Source: a virus
Taxonomy: Duplodnaviria > Caudoviricetes
Length of the DNA stretch: 54,412 nt
Strand: one strand, 5' to 3'
IMG/VR virus record: IMGVR_UViG_3300025168_000113
Span: 1-54,412 of that record
Made by a program: the position numbers and the translations under genes. Below the pieces are notes generated by a model. It saw nothing but the letters and a program-made list of their open reading frames with translations. It did no database searches and had not been told where the DNA came from. Each line of letters begins with the position of its first letter. Position 1 is the first letter of the stretch. Below, piece after piece: positions 3,271-54,252 of this stretch.

Positions 3271-3579
3271 ATGGAAAATGAATTTAATTTAGAGAGTTAC
3301 AATTATCCCATTACAGTAGGGGGTAATAATTTAACTTATGCAATTTGTAATATTGCAACAGATTTAAGTAATATTGACTTTAGCCAAGTGGGGCAAAGTT
3401 CAGCAGGAACAATTAGAAGGAGTTTAGATGATACTCTTTTTATAATTAAATACAATGCAGAGCCTACTTTTATAAAAGATGGATCTGTAACCCCTTCACA
3501 GATTTTAAGTCATGAAGAATGTTTAGAATTGATGAGTACGCCAGATTGGTCAGAACCGATAGAAGAAGAAGTAAAATGA
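3271..3579 (+). CDS. Hypothetical protein accompanying the LamG fibre
   Basis: 102-aa ORF tightly following the fibre gene. Confidence 0.6.
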   Translation: MENEFNLESYNYPITVGGNNLTYAICNIATDLSNIDFSQVGQSSAGTIRRSLDDTLFIIKYNAEPTFIKDGSVTPSQILSHEECLELMSTPDWSEPIEEEVK

Positions 3580-3677
3580 AATTCAGTCACCAAAAAGAAG
3601 AAAAAAAGAAAACGAAGAAGGGTGAGGATGCGAACTAATCGCGGAAAGAAAAGAAGAAAAAATAAAAATTAAATTAA

Positions 3678-3926
3678 ATGAAAATTAAAGAAGAACAGTT
3701 GAAACAAATTCAAGAACAACAAAAAGCATTAAATTCTATAATGCATGAAGTGGGAGTTTTAGAAGCTCAGAAACACGGGTTGTTACATAAGTTTGCTGGA
3801 ATCAATCAAGAGGTTGAAGATGTAAAAAGCGAATTAGAAAAAGAGTACGGAGCAGTTAATATTAATTTAGAGACTGGAGAGTACACTGAAATAGAGAAAG
3901 AACAAGAATTAAGTAAAGTAGATTAA
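3678..3926 (+). CDS. Hypothetical coiled-coil protein
   Basis: 82 aa, E/Q/K-rich heptads, A-rich start context. Confidence 0.65.
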   Translation: MKIKEEQLKQIQEQQKALNSIMHEVGVLEAQKHGLLHKFAGINQEVEDVKSELEKEYGAVNINLETGEYTEIEKEQELSKVD

Positions 3927-36066: not shown

Positions 36067-36111
36067 AAGGAACAATAAGAAATGGGCACCATACCTAAAG
36101 TTCCTGTAACC

Positions 36112-36147
36112 AAAAAAGGGGATCTCAATACGAGGTCCCCTTTTTTT
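36112..36147. terminator. Bidirectional intrinsic terminator at the convergence of the two arms
   Basis: A6-GGGGATCTC-AATAC-GAGGTCCCC-T7. Confidence 0.9.
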
Positions 36148-36167
36148 ATTTGTGTATATAACTTTAG

Positions 36168-46559: not shown

Positions 46560-46772
46560 TTATAGGTTTAATAGGTTTAGTCGTCTACTGTATTTCTTTT
46601 GTAGACTAATATTGTTTTGTATTTCCATTCTCAATAGTTTCCAATCGTCTTCATCATATTTTGTCACTACATGCATAGCGTCAGTAAATATTTGTTCATG
46701 GAGTTCTACAATTCTTCTTTCAAGATATTTTATATGTCTTGATTTTCTTGGGTTAAATTCTATTTTATTCAT
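46560..46772 (-). CDS. Hypothetical protein
   Basis: 70-aa ORF starting directly after a structured leader. Confidence 0.6.
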   Translation of the reverse strand: MNKIEFNPRKSRHIKYLERRIVELHEQIFTDAMHVVTKYDEDDWKLLRMEIQNNISLQKKYSRRLNLLNL

Positions 46773-46843
46773 ACCTACGAAAGCCCATACCGTTTCTGGT
46801 ATGAGCTGCTCAAAGGATGCCTGGTCGCCTTATTTATTCGTAG
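46773..46843 (-). ncRNA. Structured cis-element, copy 1
   Basis: Outer stem CTACGAA/TTCGTAG and inner stem GCTCATACC/GGTATGGGC; homologous to 49129-49245. Confidence 0.6.
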
Positions 46844-46920
46844 TATTTATCTAATATTTTATTAGCAACGTCCATGCTAATCTCGTTGTTTAGATATAAT
46901 TGAAATATTAATTTTCTCAT
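46834..46920 (-). CDS. Small ORF (28 aa), not in ORF track
   Basis: MRKLIFQLYLNNEISMDVANKILDKYYE. Confidence 0.45.
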   Translation of the reverse strand: MRKLIFQLYLNNEISMDVANKILDKYYE

Positions 46921-46924
46921 AATT

Positions 46925-47416
46925 TTAAAAACCTACCAATTCCACCCATGGAATTTCGGTATATATTTTTTCGTCTTTATTTGCTACTGTATGCTTTTCG
47001 CCTATGTAGTAATTCCAATAAGCTATAGTTGATAATTCATCTTTGTACTGATCAGGCATACATTGTGGTGGTTGGGTAAAACCTGTACAGGCTAAGCCAC
47101 CTGGTAGTATATTAAGTTTATCTTTACATTTAGTATAAGATAAATGCTCTTTGTTGTATCGCTTAGTATATTCTTCAGATAGTGCAACAAAATGGTCATA
47201 CAACCACGCGTAGTTTTGAGCTGATCTTCTCACCCATACTGTTGATGGATGGTTAACATGTGCACTTTTATAAGGTACATCTGCGTCCTCTCCCATTATA
47301 CAGTGATGTGCTGTACATAGCATTTGTGCTGATTCTAAGACCATCTTAACAACGTGTTTGTTGTATTGTACCTTAGCTGCGATAACTGGGTCTCTGTGTA
47401 AATAAAATATATTCAT
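46925..47416 (-). CDS. Pyrimidine-dimer DNA glycosylase/endonuclease V family protein
   Basis: MNIFYL...KHVVKMVLESAQMLCTAH...HVNHPSTVW...EYTKRY; start placed at MNIF. Confidence 0.75.
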   Translation of the reverse strand: MNIFYLHRDPVIAAKVQYNKHVVKMVLESAQMLCTAHHCIMGEDADVPYKSAHVNHPSTVWVRRSAQNYAWLYDHFVALSEEYTKRYNKEHLSYTKCKDKLNILPGGLACTGFTQPPQCMPDQYKDELSTIAYWNYYIGEKHTVANKDEKIYTEIPWVELVGF

Positions 47417-48270
47417 TCGTAATTTCTTAAACATTTAAATAATGGGTGTCTGTAAGAACCTGCTTGAGTTCGTTGAAAATAAGTGAATGTAGCTATCTTA
47501 CCAATATAATCGTGTATATTTTCTAGTAGCTTAGCCATATCTTCGTAGTCGTAACCTTTACCAGGTGGACAACCGAATATATTACCATCTTCATCTTCCA
47601 TAATAAACTTACCTAGTGTACCTTCACGCTTACCTTTACCTACTTCGTAGTTAATAATTGTAGCTTCAGCATCATGGAAGTCTTTGAACTTCATAAGATC
47701 CCATGATCTAGTACCTTTATATAGTCCATTAGGATTTCTATAAATTGAGCCTTCATAACCTGCTTTTAATGCTTTATTATGTATATCTTTTGCGGCTTCT
47801 AAAGAATTAACTTTATGTGTTCCAACAGTACGAACCTGTTTCATGTTTAAAAACAAGCCGTTAGCATCTATTATATCAATTATATGATCTAGTCTTTCTT
47901 CATAAGTTGGAGATAGAACATCCTCTAACGGAACTATATCATATACGTGATATTGTACTAACTTTTCAGCTTCTTTTCTGTGTTCAAATGTAGGTTTAGT
48001 CTTTCTTACTAATGAAATAATCTTTTCGAAATCATCTTTTAGTTTGTGGTTGTACAGTTCGCCATCTAATCTAATGTATGGGTATTTTTTAAACAGTGGT
48101 TTTAATGTTTCTATAATGTGCTCTACATTTTTAAACTCTTTCCCTGTTCTAGAAAAAGCACCTTGTTTTGTAAATACACATCTAACTCCATCAAGTTTGG
48201 GTTGCATAAGAGCAGGAAATACTGCTTTATCAGGATTGAACTTGTGTGCTAACATTGGTTTTATTGTCAT
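47413..48270 (-). CDS. Minimal ATP-dependent DNA ligase
   Basis: KPMLA, QPKLDGVR, LDGELY, YDI, EGSI and LMKFK motifs. Confidence 0.9.
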   Translation of the reverse strand: MTIKPMLAHKFNPDKAVFPALMQPKLDGVRCVFTKQGAFSRTGKEFKNVEHIIETLKPLFKKYPYIRLDGELYNHKLKDDFEKIISLVRKTKPTFEHRKEAEKLVQYHVYDIVPLEDVLSPTYEERLDHIIDIIDANGLFLNMKQVRTVGTHKVNSLEAAKDIHNKALKAGYEGSIYRNPNGLYKGTRSWDLMKFKDFHDAEATIINYEVGKGKREGTLGKFIMEDEDGNIFGCPPGKGYDYEDMAKLLENIHDYIGKIATFTYFQRTQAGSYRHPLFKCLRNYE

Positions 48271-48569
48271 AATTTTCCTAATTTTCCTTGTATTATTTTT
48301 AATTTCTTTAGTATTCTAGCTGCTTTTTCATATTCTTCTTTATCTTCGTAAATCATTAGAATTGTTTGCAGTCTAGCTAATTCACCAATTAGCATTTCTT
48401 CATCAGACATATCTGCGAATATACTTGCTAAGTGGTCAGTTTGTTTGAAGTCGTCTTCAAATTGTTTCTTTGCATTAGCTCTAGTGTCTGCATCTCCGAA
48501 TAGTTCTAACACTATTTTTGATGCAACCATATCAGCTAATTTTCGTAAGTCTTTGTCTGTCATATTCAT
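48267..48569 (-). CDS. Hypothetical protein with UvrB/C-like C-terminal motif
   Basis: EDKEEYEKAARI; ATG lies 6 nt after a promoter-motif copy. Confidence 0.6.
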   Translation of the reverse strand: MNMTDKDLRKLADMVASKIVLELFGDADTRANAKKQFEDDFKQTDHLASIFADMSDEEMLIGELARLQTILMIYEDKEEYEKAARILKKLKIIQGKLGKL

Positions 48570-48575
48570 ATTGTT

Positions 48576-48606
48576 ATTATCTATGAGTATTCGTATTTAG
48601 TTTGTA
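48576..48606 (-). promoter_or_regulatory. Repeated phage promoter motif, copy 1
   Basis: TACAAACTAAATACGA-ATACTCAT-AGATAAT. Confidence 0.8.
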
Positions 48607-48798
48607 TTATTGTTTTCTGTAATCGTTAAAATCAATTAGAAACCCTATAAATACAATTATATTGAGCCCTAAGGACGTAGCGATCTCAACTAGATCATTA
48701 TATACATTTAACGATAAATGAATGTGTCCTACAACCCAAAATGGGGTTGCTAAGTTTTCACTTATCCATACTAAAGTAAACTTTATTAATTTATTCAT
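48607..48798 (-). CDS. Small membrane protein
   Basis: 63 aa, two hydrophobic segments. Confidence 0.55.
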   Translation of the reverse strand: MNKLIKFTLVWISENLATPFWVVGHIHLSLNVYNDLVEIATSLGLNIIVFIGFLIDFNDYRKQ

Positions 48799-48949
48799 AA
48801 GTAAGTTCGTGTGGGTATGGGTTTATTTTTATATATTCTAGTATCTCCGCTTCAGTATAAGAATATTGCGGGCATTGTCTACAAGGTACAGCACGTTTAG
48901 TACTACAACTTGCGAATAATGCTATTGTTATTATTAGTATTTGTTTCAT
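48791..48949 (-). CDS. Small lipoprotein (52 aa), not in ORF track
   Basis: MKQILIITIALFAS-C lipobox, then CxxC. Confidence 0.6.
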   Translation of the reverse strand: MKQILIITIALFASCSTKRAVPCRQCPQYSYTEAEILEYIKINPYPHELTYE

Positions 48950-49128
48950 TTTATTAATTCTAAGCCAAGTTCCTTAGCTGCGTAGTTAATATGTTTCTGT
49001 GTAGTAACTGACCACCAACCTAGTTGATGCAGCTCATCTCCTTTTATTGTTGCAACATGCGTGGAGTAACTCCATATTTTATTACCATGCTGTCTTAAAT
49101 TTTCTTTATATTTATTAAATTTTCTCAT
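48946..49128 (-). CDS. Hypothetical protein
   Basis: Start reassigned to MRKFNKY; the 5' extension in the ORF track overlaps a GC-rich structured element. Confidence 0.6.
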   Translation of the reverse strand: MRKFNKYKENLRQHGNKIWSYSTHVATIKGDELHQLGWWSVTTQKHINYAAKELGLELIK

Positions 49129-49245
49129 ACCACGAAAAGCCCGTACCGTGGAAACGCCTCTTTCCACATCTGCATGTGGCATGGGTCGGTCCATTGTACG
49201 AGCTACCGAGTTTCGGTGTGCCGAGTTTCGGTTTGTCCTTCGTGG
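49129..49245 (-). ncRNA. Structured cis-element, copy 2
   Basis: Outer stem CCACGAAG/TTTCGTGG, inner stem GCTCGTAC/GTACGGGC, two CCGA-AAC-TCGG hairpins and GTGGAAA/TTTCCAC. Confidence 0.65.
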
Positions 49246-49259
49246 AAACTAAACTACTA

Positions 49260-49541
49260 CTAATCTAACAACACGTAGTATGCTTCTGGGTTATTCACCC
49301 TAAACCAAGTTAATCCTTTTTGAAATTCATTTATTCTTTTATCATTCATAAGGTTACCTAAGTGACTTGATTGTGATTCAAACACCATTTGACAACCTAT
49401 AATAAAGTCATATATGCTTAGTTCTAGTCCGTTTAATTCATAAGTTTCTCCACTGAAAGGATTTCTTACTTCAGCTCCTTCAGTGTAAATTTGTCCTTGA
49501 AACCATTTAGGCTTCTGCTGTTTCTTCGTCTTCGATTCCAT
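49260..49541 (-). CDS. Hypothetical protein
   Basis: 93-aa ORF. Confidence 0.65.
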   Translation of the reverse strand: MESKTKKQQKPKWFQGQIYTEGAEVRNPFSGETYELNGLELSIYDFIIGCQMVFESQSSHLGNLMNDKRINEFQKGLTWFRVNNPEAYYVLLD

Positions 49542-50934: not shown

Positions 50935-50965
50935 ATTATCTGGCTTCAATCGTATTTAGTTTGTA
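50935..50965 (-). promoter_or_regulatory. Repeated phage promoter motif, copy 2
   Basis: TACAAACTAAATACGA-TTGAAGCC-AGATAAT. Confidence 0.8.
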
Positions 50966-52561: not shown

Positions 52562-52677
52562 TGAACGAGAGAGAGGATTCGAACCTCTCATGTCTAGAAC
52601 AGTTCAACTAACCACATAAGATTGCTGATGTGTTAAAGGTATCATCTTAATACCAATTAGTTCTACCTGACCTCGCT
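52562..52677 (-). ncRNA. tRNA-like structured RNA, not a canonical tRNA
   Basis: T-arm GAGAGG-TTCGAAT-CCTCTC stacked on acceptor-like stem AGCGAGG/TCTCGTT; no D arm, anticodon arm or encoded CCA. Confidence 0.55.
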
Positions 52678-53130: not shown

Positions 53131-53161
53131 ATTATCTATTAGCGTTCGTGTTTAGTTTGTA
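53131..53161 (-). promoter_or_regulatory. Repeated phage promoter motif, copy 3
   Basis: TACAAACTAAACACGA-ACGCTAAT-AGATAAT. Confidence 0.8.
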
Positions 53162-54221: not shown

Positions 54222-54252
54222 ATTATCTTTCTAGTATCGTATTTAGTTTGTA
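54222..54252 (-). promoter_or_regulatory. Repeated phage promoter motif, copy 4
   Basis: TACAAACTAAATACGA-TACTAGAA-AGATAAT. Confidence 0.8.

What the first reader, a model, noticed from the sequence alone, without database searches (positions are those of the whole stretch)
46773..49245. Two homologous structured RNA leaders with compensatory mutations, each ending at a start codon
Seen: on the - strand, 46773-46843 reads CTACGAA-(hairpin)-AGCTCATAC-(C AGAAA)-CGGTATGGGC-TTTCGTAG-GT-ATG. 49129-49245 reads CCACGAA-(two hairpins)-AGCTCGTAC-(branched insert)-CGGTACGGGC-TTTTCGTG-GT-ATG. Both conserved helices covary: a T-A versus C-G pair in the outer stem, an A-T versus G-C pair in the inner stem, with the same T-G wobble kept. 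The peripheral inserts are unrelated in sequence and length. Both elements are GC-rich islands in an AT-rich genome and end 1-2 nt before the ATG of unrelated small genes. In copy 1 the 5' strand of the outer stem overlaps the last codons of an upstream 28-aa ORF. Inference: a multi-way-junction RNA motif I do not recognise, which could control initiation, act as a processing site or ribozyme, or bind a phage regulator.
Basis: partly seen in the sequence, partly recalled or inferred. Interest (0 to 1): 0.85.

Follow-up and report, generated by a model that had tools for sequence, protein, structure and literature searches.

The report
Conserved RNA hairpin marking phage gene starts
A group of uncultured marine phages carries, between early genes, a conserved folded RNA element that ends a fixed ten bases before an invariant A, which is usually the A of the next gene's ATG; it matches no catalogued RNA family, and its most likely job is to mark where one message ends and the next begins.

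Summary
Both copies are in the sequence as described, and they are real.

**Distribution.** The same element occurs 1-5 times per genome in about 49 IMG/VR contigs. It is always on the coding strand, between early genes. It is absent from Rfam 15 and from GenBank phages.

**Conserved core.**
- An inner hairpin with base AGCUC/GGGCU. It has an almost invariant U.G wobble and strong covariation above it.
- A U-rich 10-nt spacer.
- An invariant A.

**Outer helix.** It pairs the spacer with an upstream YNRCGAA box. Its support comes from compensatory changes in diverged copies, not from complementarity statistics.

**Variable hairpin.** The "multi-way junction" arm is dispensable. Many copies lack it.

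**New observations.**
- The hairpin-to-A distance is 10 nt in 65 of 71 model hits.
- The distance from that A to the next ORF start is bimodal: 0 (or 2) nt, or at least 17 nt. This is the pattern expected if the A is the 5' end of the downstream RNA.

**Best reading (confidence about 0.35).** An intercistronic processing or "punctuation" signal. It would cap the upstream message with a hairpin and release a leaderless or short-leader downstream message.

**Rivals.** A translational operator or ribosome-positioning hairpin, an attenuator or PeSL-like cassette, a promoter, or a ribozyme. No RNA-end data were available.

The parts
46837..46843 (-). Copy 1, outer helix P1, 5' strand (CUACGAA). It overlaps the last codons and the stop of the 28-aa ORF.
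46808..46836 (-). Copy 1, variable arm P2. The same module recurs as P2 in L050, L090, L091 and L110.
46782..46807 (-). Copy 1, conserved hairpin P3 (AGCUCAUACC / GGUAUGGGCU, loop AGAAAC), with the U.G wobble.
46773..46782 (-). Copy 1, 10-nt spacer after GGGC (UUUCGUAGGU). Positions 46781-46775 form the 3' strand of P1.
46560..46772 (-). 70-aa ORF. The A of its ATG (46772) is the invariant A of the motif.
   Evidence: no Pfam or PHROG family
46834..46920 (-). 28-aa upstream ORF (...LDKYYE*). Its homologues precede this type of copy in relatives.
49239..49245 (-). Copy 2, P1 5' strand (CCACGAA).
49205..49238 (-). Copy 2, variable arm P2 (nested hairpins).
49138..49204 (-). Copy 2, hairpin P3 (AGCUCGUAC / GUACGGGCU) with a 49-nt branched apical insert at 49195-49147.
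   Evidence: L091 carries a related insert
49129..49138 (-). Copy 2, 10-nt spacer after GGGC (UUUUCGUGGU). Positions 49136-49130 form the 3' strand of P1.
48946..49128 (-). 60-aa ORF starting at the invariant A. The same protein family follows the motif in L025, L081 and L118.
   Evidence: weak PHROG hits of unknown function
49246..49271 (-). Conserved AT-rich 5' flank with TAG stops in all three frames (..TTAGATTAGTAGTAGTTTAGTTT). The same flank precedes this type of copy in many relatives, whatever the upstream gene.

Best explanation
The element is an intercistronic RNA "punctuation" signal of the phage's early polycistronic transcripts.

Proposed mechanism:
- Hairpin P3 has a sequence-specific base (AGCUC/GGGCU, with a U.G wobble). 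A nuclease, host or phage, recognises it.
- The nuclease cuts a fixed distance downstream, just 5' of the invariant A that lies 10 nt after the GGGC.
- The upstream message is left capped by a stable 3' structure.
- The downstream message starts at that A. It is therefore leaderless when the A is the A of the ATG, or it carries an ordinary leader of 17-46 nt.
- Before cutting, helix P1 pairs the 10-nt spacer with an upstream YNRCGAA box. This keeps the start region closed in uncut read-through RNA.
- The P2 arm and the top of P3 are free to vary.

Shown here: the conserved structure, its strand specificity, the fixed spacing, the bimodal distance to the start codon, and the position between co-directional early genes.

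Inferred: that RNA ends are made at the A, that a protein nuclease rather than the RNA itself makes them, and that leaderless translation follows.
For: 1. A real family.
- 59 unique copies came from the pattern scans.
- The covariance model gave 71 hits in 61 sources.
- About 49 IMG/VR contigs carry it.
- There are 1-5 copies per genome, clustered in about 8 kb of the early region.

2. P3 covaries.
- 5 of its 10 pairs have changes on both sides.
- 98.4% of its cells are paired.
- Over the whole structure, 0 of 500 shuffles reach the observed values, and slid controls give at most 44% paired.

3. Strand specificity. U.G occupies one P3 pair in 57 of 58 rows. G.U-type cells far outnumber unpaired cells in P3. 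The structure therefore works on the sense strand, as expected for RNA.

4. Fixed ruler. Exactly 10 nt separate GGGC/GGGG from the invariant A in 65 of 71 hits. This includes both registers of P1, which is shifted by one base between the two window copies.

5. The spacer conservation is not an artefact of my search patterns. With the 7 spacer bases left free, a scan of IMG/VR returned only known copies, 32 loci and none of them new. Counted over all loci held at that point, 4 MAG fragments included, that is 43 matches in 35 loci: 38 TTTCGTG, 4 TTCGTAG and 1 ATTCGTG.

6. Bimodal distance from the A to the ORF start.
- It is 0 nt in 40 of 59 unique copies and 2 nt in 3. The remainder lie 17 nt or more away, up to 103 nt behind the middle copy of a tandem array, and 1 copy has no ORF behind it. 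No copy has a distance between 3 and 16 nt.
- By downstream protein family, 8 of 20 families have distance 0, 1 has distance 2, and 11 have 17-84 nt.
- TSS-to-start distances of bacterial mRNAs look like this. Leaderless mRNAs exist in flavobacteria: 5.5% of 890 mapped mRNAs, with a median leader of 24 nt (PMC9723704, passages).

7. The phage's own four-copy early-promoter motif ends 6 nt before ATG-AAT. Leaderless starts therefore seem to be part of its normal repertoire.

8. Some copies cannot act on a start codon. In L048, L087, L112 and L034 the motif is followed directly by that promoter motif. In L121 and L050, copies flank another structured RNA module. An element that defines RNA ends fits these cases. 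A start-codon regulator does not.
Against: - There are no RNA-end data. The only RNA runs were low-depth contigs of relatives and show nothing.
- No nuclease or RNA-binding protein was recognised among the window's proteins.
- A variable branch (P2) in the middle of the stacked helices would be awkward for RNase III, the classical phage processing enzyme.
- P1 is weaker than it looks. A free search of 170 nt upstream finds a duplex as long as the observed one as often in shuffled sequence; only 1 of 56 copies reaches p <= 0.05.
- The P1 figures come from an alignment fitted to the model, and copies that carry P2 are misaligned there.
- The hairpin followed by a U run also looks like a weak terminator.
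- The fixed A could equally be a transcription start.
Confidence: 0.35

Rival explanations
1. Translational operator or ribosome-positioning hairpin. The element acts on initiation of the gene behind it. In one version P1 closes the start region until a phage RNA-binding protein, upstream translation or melting opens it. In the other version P3, sitting exactly 10 nt before the AUG, docks at the mouth of the 30S mRNA exit channel and sets the AUG in the P site of a ribosome that does not use Shine-Dalgarno pairing.
For: - 43 of 59 unique copies abut an ORF start, in front of at least 9 unrelated protein families.
- The 10-nt spacing is fixed.
- The sequence-specific hairpin base with an invariant U.G looks like a binding site.
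- In the copy-1 type, the stop codon of a conserved small upstream ORF lies inside P1. A terminating ribosome would therefore open P1.
- From recall: Bacteroidota do not rely on Shine-Dalgarno pairing.
Against: - 16 of 59 copies keep the spacer and the invariant A with no start codon there. Some sit directly before a promoter motif or in tandem arrays.
- No candidate RNA-binding protein was recognised.
- The bases just before the ATG are G/U-rich, not the A-rich context reported for flavobacterial starts (recalled).
Confidence: 0.2
2. Attenuator or weak intrinsic terminator that also serves as a PeSL-like recombination cassette. P3 plus the U run stops part of the upstream transcription and insulates early gene cassettes. 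The conserved roughly 50-nt sequence is a preferred site for homologous exchange, which explains its place at mosaic junctions.
For: - The hairpin is GC-rich and followed by UUU(U).
- Unrelated phages use almost the same hairpin, with a long U run, as an ordinary terminator.
- Some copies sit just before a promoter motif, and L121 has a tandem array of three.
- Stops in all three frames lie upstream at one site type.
- Different downstream genes follow identical motif copies, and P2 modules are shared between sites.
- Contigs of relatives diverge from the window at the motif borders (weak).
- PeSLs are composite stem-loop and promoter cassettes placed before ORFans. They act as terminators and as recombination sites (PMC2839356, passages; PMC4122927, abstract).
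Against: - There are only 3-4 U, and the run is interrupted (UAUU) in L034 and L050.
- The phage's own convergent-gene terminator has 7 U.
- The terminator scan did not list either copy.
- Genes that start at the invariant A would have no promoter. No sigma-70-like or Bacteroidota-type promoter was found in or at the motif.
- Termination explains neither the conserved CGUGGUA after the U run, nor P1, nor the bimodal distance to the start.
Confidence: 0.2
3. Promoter with the invariant A as the transcription start. The hairpin base and the 10-nt spacer would be recognised as DNA by a phage-specific transcription machinery, as phage N4's virion polymerase recognises a hairpin promoter (recalled).
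For: - A fixed distance to an invariant purine, and a bimodal distance from that purine to the start codon.
- A contiguous conserved 15-mer before the A.
- An earlier scan note on a crAss-like phage proposes a similar hairpin-plus-signal cassette.
Against: - No RNA polymerase was found. The 3332-aa virion protein shows none by Pfam, PHROG or PDB sequence search, and it has no DFDxD motif.
- No T7-type polymerase was found in 5 records, but the controls for that search could not ring.
- The one-sided variation in P1 runs through G.U pairs, and the U.G in P3 is invariant. Both point to a fold of the sense strand, which includes sequence upstream of the supposed start.
- The spacer is not AT-rich.
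Confidence: 0.08
4. Small self-cleaving ribozyme that cuts at the U|A step after P1.
For: The peripheral parts vary around a small conserved core, the U.G wobble and the junction U's are invariant, and the candidate site is fixed.
Against: - No ribozyme family matches, even at E <= 10.
- The minimal natural form is a 45-nt interrupted hairpin with no conserved loop or pseudoknot partner. That is simpler than any known natural self-cleaving class (recalled).
Confidence: 0.05
5. DNA-level mobile or recombination element, such as a miniature inverted-repeat element or an attC-like folded site.
For: - Terminal inverted repeat (CCACGAA...TTCGTGG) around a variable centre.
- Presence or absence differs between relatives at the same gene junction.
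- Modules are nested.
Against: - No transposase or integrase was seen in the window's screened proteins.
- There is no target-site duplication.
- The orientation is always that of the genes, and G.U-type variation is tolerated.
- Copies within one genome differ greatly in their interiors, unlike a recently mobile element.
Confidence: 0.05

Closest known systems
PeSL (promoter-early stem-loop) cassettes of T4-type phages (PMC2839356; PMC4122927)
   Same: - Repeated composite intergenic elements of about 50-100 nt in the early region, which is rich in ORFans.
- They contain a stem-loop with G.T pairs and sit immediately before the next gene.
- They lie at junctions where genes are swapped between relatives.
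   Different: - PeSLs carry a recognisable sigma-70-type -35/-10 promoter and a Shine-Dalgarno sequence, and there are about 50 per genome.
- This element shows no recognisable promoter or SD.
- It has 1-5 copies per genome, a second helix that closes the spacer, and a strict 10-nt distance to an invariant A.
RNase III processing sites of the phage T7 early region (recalled from the literature, not read here)
   Same: - A handful of homologous interrupted hairpins lie between genes of an early polycistronic RNA.
- Cutting leaves a protective 3' hairpin on the upstream message and a new 5' end close to the next start.
   Different: - Here the proposed cut lies outside the helices, not in the internal loop.
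- A variable branch often sits at the junction.
- The stacked helices are short, 5-8 bp plus 9-10 bp.
- Cleavage has not been shown.
Start-associated sequences (SAS/ESAS) of Cluster K mycobacteriophages (PMC3203893, passages read)
   Same: - A conserved asymmetric sequence sits immediately before the start codons of a subset of unrelated genes.
- About half of them have an upstream inverted repeat with a variable spacer.
- They are one-orientation and phage-specific, and their function is unknown.
   Different: - The SAS is a 13-bp sequence with SD-like pairing potential, present in 11-19 copies spread over the genome.
- Here there is no SD-like part. The fold is supported by covariation, and the element is confined to the early region.
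Intrinsic (Rho-independent) terminators
   Same: A GC-rich hairpin followed by U's. Near-identical hairpins with long U runs are plain terminators in other IMG/VR phages.
   Different: - The U run has only 3-4 bases, sometimes interrupted.
- A conserved CGUGGUA follows it.
- Genes start 10 nt after the stem.
- An upstream strand pairs with the would-be U tract.

Membership tests
Any Rfam 15 family (including hammerhead, twister, twister-sister, pistol, hatchet, HDV-like, riboswitches and phage motifs) | Covariance-model score at or above the family's gathering threshold. | tested here: not met
   0 hits at gathering score in the whole window and in 5 related loci. At E <= 10, only unrelated hits far below threshold appear: 21 bits against 40 in the window, 17 against 55 in L121, 15 against 52 in L081.
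Intrinsic terminator | Stable GC-rich hairpin. | tested here: met
   P3 has 9-10 bp and 98.4% of its cells are paired.
Intrinsic terminator | U-rich tract directly after the stem. The scan criterion used was at least 5 T within 8 nt. | tested here: not met
   The sequence after the stem is UUUUCGUGG or UUUCGUAGG. UAUU variants occur in L034 and L050. Neither window copy was listed by the terminator scan. The phage's clear terminator at 36110-36150 has 7 U.
Intrinsic terminator | RNA 3' ends form 7-9 nt after the stem. | not testable with these tools
   Only assembled RNA contigs of relatives were available.
PeSL cassette | Stem-loop placed before small early ORFs, at junctions of gene exchange. 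| tested here: met
   Identical motif copies precede different genes.
PeSL cassette | A consensus host-type promoter (-35/-10) inside the cassette. | tested here: not met
   No sigma-70-like site lies at either copy. The Bacteroidota -33/-7 consensus is not enriched: 5 against 4.0 expected, and 86 against 79.8 expected. The phage's own early-promoter motif is a separate element that only sometimes follows the RNA motif.
T7-type RNase III site | Interrupted double helix of about two turns, between genes of an early polycistronic RNA. | tested here: inconclusive
   P1 (5-8 bp) plus P3 (9-10 bp or more) with a U-rich internal loop fits in copies without P2. Many copies carry a branch at the junction.
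T7-type RNase III site | Cleavage by RNase III. | not testable with these tools
   No experiment or read-level RNA data were available.
tRNA or tRNA-like punctuation element | Cloverleaf, or at least a T-arm with a T-loop. | tested here: not met
   ARAGORN finds no tRNA or tmRNA in the window. P3 loops are variable and not T-loop-like.
N4-type hairpin promoter (features recalled) | A phage-encoded virion or single-subunit RNA polymerase to read it. | tested here: not met
   No polymerase domain or DFDxD motif in the 3332-aa protein. No PF00940 match in 5 records, but the control genomes could not validate that search.

The most novel reading that the evidence does not exclude
The hairpin is a structural stand-in for the Shine-Dalgarno helix. 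Its sequence-specific base docks on the platform of the Bacteroidota 30S subunit, which keeps its anti-SD hidden. The exact 10-nt spacer threads the exit channel so that the invariant A-U-G lands in the P site. This would be a small bacterial IRES-like start signal, with P1 as its off-switch.
Probability: 0.1. Interest if true: 0.9.

Novelty: new variant of a known kind. Interest (0 to 1): 0.6.

Why it matters
Phages of marine Bacteroidota are abundant, and how they control their genes is almost unknown. Their hosts start translation without Shine-Dalgarno pairing.

This element is small and sharply defined. It sets a fixed point 10 nt after a hairpin, and that point is usually the first base of the next gene.

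If the point is a processing site, the element would show how a polycistronic phage transcript is converted into leaderless messages. That is a bacterial counterpart of tRNA punctuation in mitochondria.

If the hairpin instead positions ribosomes, it would be a new kind of bacterial start signal.

Either way it would give a compact, portable part for gene expression in Bacteroidota, and a marker for annotating true gene starts in these phages.

Tried and rejected
**Rfam.** Nothing at gathering scores or at permissive E-values.

**GenBank phages.**
- No DNA match to the 4-kb region.
- No DNA match to either form of the motif.
- The ligase protein finds only distant relatives, at most 38.5% identity. 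The clade therefore has no cultured member in that collection.

**RNA evidence.**
- The run search gave only small shares, 0.05-0.23.
- The four runs I laid were low-depth assembled contigs of relatives, and they cannot show RNA ends.
- I draw nothing from their cover. I only note that some contigs of relatives diverge from the window at the motif borders.

**Virion or single-subunit polymerase.** Not found. The PF00940 search had no positive control.

**Host-type promoter consensus.** Not enriched in the window.

**Simple complementarity test for P1.** It failed to beat shuffles, with 1 of 56 copies at p <= 0.05. I therefore rest P1 on compensatory variants only.

**Alignments.**
- MAFFT alignments of short copies put P1 out of register.
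- RNAalifold on the model-fitted alignment recovered only the top 5 pairs of P3.
- The model-fitted alignment mis-assigns the P1 5' strand in copies that carry P2. The P1 rows are therefore optimistic.

**Ideas considered and set aside.**
- The P1 5' box might be part of the early promoter's upstream half, because one site type reads ACAAACAACTGACGAA against the promoter's ACAAACTAAATACGAA. The resemblance is confined to that site type.
- A tRNA-like acceptor/T-arm stack read by RNase Z. There is no T-loop, and the distance is off by one.
- boxA/nut-like or put-like antitermination RNA. There is no sequence likeness (from recall).

**Published catalogue.** The catalogue of 8,495 candidate structured RNAs from IMG/VR (PMC10690425) may list this motif under a number. 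I saw only passages of the main text, which do not describe it.

**Literature searches.** None turned up this motif.

Full report
**What is in the window.**

Copy 1, positions 46843-46773:
- outer-helix strand CUACGAA
- a 29-nt variable hairpin
- inner hairpin AGCUCAUACC-AGAAAC-GGUAUGGGCU
- return strand UUCGUAG
- GU, then the ATG of a 70-aa ORF

Copy 2, positions 49245-49129:
- CCACGAA
- a 34-nt nested hairpin
- AGCUCGUAC
- a 49-nt branched insert
- GUACGGGCU
- U, then UUCGUGG
- U, then the ATG of a 60-aa ORF

Further checks:
- A 28-aa ORF ends inside the first strand of copy 1.
- Both sites are GC-rich islands, 0.39 and 0.54 against about 0.3.
- Both fold as proposed, with z-scores of -3.7 and -4.5.
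- No Rfam family matches, either at curated thresholds or at E <= 10.
- A covariance model built later finds only these two copies in the window.

**A family exists.**

Pattern scans of IMG/VR gave many chance hits in GC-rich coding DNA. They also gave clear homologues that share the same tail after the hairpin.
- 16 of the 63 loci are homologues, with 2 more doubtful.
- The 15-mer of copy 2's type brought many more.
- The 15-mer of copy 1's type gave 22 loci. Six of them are family members and 16 are chance hits, which calibrates the chance level for a 15-mer.
- I required a stem of at least 7 bp of the P3 type and removed duplicates. I then dropped four GC-rich chance hairpins (L017, L024, L051, L111). 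That left 59 unique copies.
- They lie on about 49 IMG/VR contigs, by my count from the listings.
- Covariance model R1 was built from seven copies that lack the middle arm. It found 71 hits at E <= 1e-3 in 61 sources.
- Complete relatives carry 1-5 copies. These are lower bounds, because R1 is weak on copies with a middle arm. In the 68-kb record the five copies all lie within about 8 kb across the record's ends.
- In bacterial genomes, the only true hits are four MAG contigs of 0.6-2 kb, which are phage fragments. One of them is labelled Bacteroidetes.
- GenBank phages hold nothing similar.
- The scan's own notes hold no look-alike.

**The structure.**

Inner hairpin P3 is solid.
- On the 71-hit alignment (61 distinct rows), 98.4% of its cells pair.
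- Five of its ten pairs change on both sides, for example G-C 28 and A-U 28 at one pair.
- One pair is U.G in 57 of 58 rows.
- Over the whole structure, no shuffle out of 500 reaches the observed values, and sliding the partner gives at most 44% paired.
- G.U-type cells far outnumber unpaired cells. The fold is therefore selected on the sense strand, as for RNA.

The base AGCUC/GGGCU is nearly invariant. A diverged second copy in L074, L085 and L108 has CCUC/GGGG, and it still keeps the U.G.

The top of P3 takes loops of 4-8 nt or inserts of up to 60 nt. Some inserts are nested modules shared between loci.

The middle arm P2 is absent in many copies. In those copies 0-6 nt separate P1 and P3, so the element is a plain interrupted hairpin. 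The conserved core is therefore not a multi-way junction.

Outer helix P1 needs care.
- The 3' strand is G/U-rich and can pair with much of the A/C-rich upstream sequence.
- In a free search of 170 nt upstream, only 1 of 56 copies had a longer duplex than 95% of shuffles.
- The model-fitted alignment mis-assigns the 5' strand where P2 is present. The 90% pairing that one search reports for P1 is therefore optimistic.

What does support P1:
- The 5' partner is a positionally conserved box, YNRCGAA.
- Most variants of the 3' strand come with a matching change in the 5' strand:

| 5' strand | 3' strand | Where seen |
|---|---|---|
| CCACG | CGUGG | most copies |
| CUACG | CGUGG | L153, a U.G intermediate |
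| CUACG | CGUAG | copy 1's type |
| ACACGAAA | UUUUCGUGU | L125 |
| CUGCC | GGUGG | L074, L085, L108 |
| CUACA | UGUGG | L067, L082 |
| CCACGAAU | AUUCGUGG | L034 |

- In the CUGCC and CUACA copies the partner is only 2-3 nt from P3, so there is no freedom in choosing it.
- Mismatched variants also occur: UGACGAA, ACACGAA paired with CGUGG, and CCACA.

I rate P1 as probable, not proven.

First, the spacing.
- The distance from the last base of GGGC (or GGGG) to an invariant A is exactly 10 nt in 65 of 71 hits.
- Of the other six, one is cut by a locus end, two were mis-parsed by my script, and three are the aberrant copies of L028.
- The two window copies differ in the register of P1 by one base, yet they keep this distance.
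- This conservation is not produced by my search patterns. With the seven spacer bases left free, the IMG/VR scan returned only loci already known, 32 in all.
- Over all loci held at that point, 4 MAG fragments included, that is 43 matches in 35 loci. They read TTTCGTG 38 times, TTCGTAG 4 times and ATTCGTG once.

Second, the distance from that A to the next ORF start is bimodal.
- It is 0 nt in 40 of 59 unique copies and 2 nt in 3 copies.
- The other 16 lie 17 nt or more away, up to 103 nt behind the middle copy of a tandem array, and one of them has no ORF. No copy has a distance between 3 and 16 nt.
- I clustered the downstream proteins of 65 analysable hits. Six hits were skipped, both copy-1-type hits among them.
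- That gave 20 protein families: 8 with distance 0, 1 with distance 2, and 11 with 17-84 nt.

**Context.**

Going down the - strand, the window carries the following elements:
- small ORFs
- copy 2
- three small ORFs
- another promoter copy
- a ligase gene and a glycosylase gene
- the 28-aa ORF
- copy 1
- a 70-aa ORF
- an HTH protein gene
- a sigma-factor gene
- recombination and replication genes

In relatives:
- The RNA motif is sometimes followed directly by the promoter motif (L048, L087, L112, L034).
- L121 has three copies in tandem.
- L050 and L121 have two copies flanking another conserved structured module.
- At one site type the motif is preceded by a conserved AT-rich flank with stops in all three frames, whatever the upstream gene.

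**Reading.**

A fixed distance from a sequence-specific hairpin to an invariant purine suggests an RNA end. So does a distance from that purine to the start codon that is either zero or a normal leader length.

Together these are what one expects if the purine is the 5' end of the downstream RNA.
- Leaderless mRNAs are known in flavobacteria: 5.5% of 890 mapped mRNAs, with a median leader of 24 nt (PMC9723704, passages).
- The phage's own promoter motif seems to make them.
- P1, as far as it is real, and the sense-strand wobble pairs both require RNA that begins upstream of the element. I therefore favour processing over a transcription start.
- I found no polymerase that could read such a promoter.
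- Processing also explains the copies that are not next to a start codon. Those copies would cap the upstream message or release the module between two copies.
- The classical parallel is the set of RNase III sites in the T7 early region (recalled).

I cannot name the enzyme. The variable branch at the junction is awkward for RNase III. I saw no nuclease gene. No read-level RNA data exist for these phages. My confidence is therefore about one in three.

**Rivals.**

A translational operator or ribosome-positioning hairpin fits the 43 of 59 copies that abut a start, and it fits the exact spacing. It does not fit the 16 copies without a start.

A weak terminator or attenuator that doubles as a recombination cassette resembles PeSLs (PMC2839356, passages; PMC4122927, abstract).
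- It fits the hairpin-plus-U look, the tandem array, the copies that sit before a promoter, and the mosaic junctions.
- The U run is short and sometimes interrupted, whereas the phage's real terminator has 7 U.
- The scan lists neither copy as a terminator.
- Genes starting at the A would lack a promoter.

A ribozyme and a DNA-level mobile element have little support.

**Novelty.**

The motif is in no Rfam family. None of my literature searches found a description of it.

A published catalogue of 8,495 candidate structured RNAs from IMG/VR may include it anonymously.

In kind it belongs with phage intergenic regulatory cassettes:
- PeSLs
- T7 processing sites
- the start-associated sequences of Cluster K mycobacteriophages (PMC3203893, passages)

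It differs from all of them in three respects: the hairpin-to-A ruler, the closing helix, and the absence of any promoter or Shine-Dalgarno part.

The Bacteroidota host is an inference. It rests on low GC, one MAG label and earlier unchecked notes, and I did not test it further.

Noticed in passing
L121:1146-1206 (-), L030:4976-5036 (-), L050:4460-4520 (+), L118:5140-5200 (+), L037:2997-3057 (+), L029:1862-1922 (+), L066:322-382 (-): A second conserved structured RNA module of about 50 nt, with an invariant loop GAGUGUG and an A-rich second loop. It lies next to the motif, between two copies, or inside the P2 arm. RNAalifold gives a three-helix fold in which 6 of 15 pairs change on both sides across 7 sequences. 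It has no Rfam match and is not present in the window.
   Followed up: partly
window 48576-48606, 50935-50965, 53131-53161, 54222-54252 (- strand): The four-copy motif TACAAACTAAAYACGA-N8-9-AGATAAT-N6-ATGAAT, noted earlier by the scan, is present as described. In relatives the same motif starts right at the last two bases of the RNA motif (L048, L087, L034) or 8 nt after it (L112).
   Followed up: partly
window 52562-52677 (- strand): An element with a perfect T-arm-like hairpin (GAGAGGUUCGAAUCCUCUC) and an acceptor-like stem. ARAGORN does not call it a tRNA or tmRNA, and Rfam gives no hit at gathering score.
   Followed up: partly
window 36110-36150: A canonical bidirectional intrinsic terminator (A6-GGGGAUCUC...GAGGUCCCC-U7) between the converging gene blocks. 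It was useful as the phage's own standard for what a terminator looks like.
   Followed up: no
L004 and L008 (same 68-kb contig), about 150 nt upstream of two motif copies: The last 100 nt or so of a 57-aa ORF, together with the whole motif, is duplicated almost identically in one genome, in front of two different genes. This is direct evidence that the motif moves or recombines together with the 3' end of the upstream gene.
   Followed up: no
L123, L126, L128, L130, L131, L127, L129, L026: Unrelated IMG/VR phages use almost the same hairpin (AGCUCAUAC...GUAUGGGCU), followed by 6-8 U, as an ordinary terminator after genes. P3 may derive from such a terminator.
   Followed up: no
L028:2797-2845, 3301-3328, 3653-3690 (- strand): A more distant phage carries three hairpins of the same build (AGCUCCACC...GGUGGGGCU, with a short outer helix CCCA/UGGG or CCAA/UUGG). 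Their spacer is different and shorter. They may be an outlying branch of the family.
   Followed up: no
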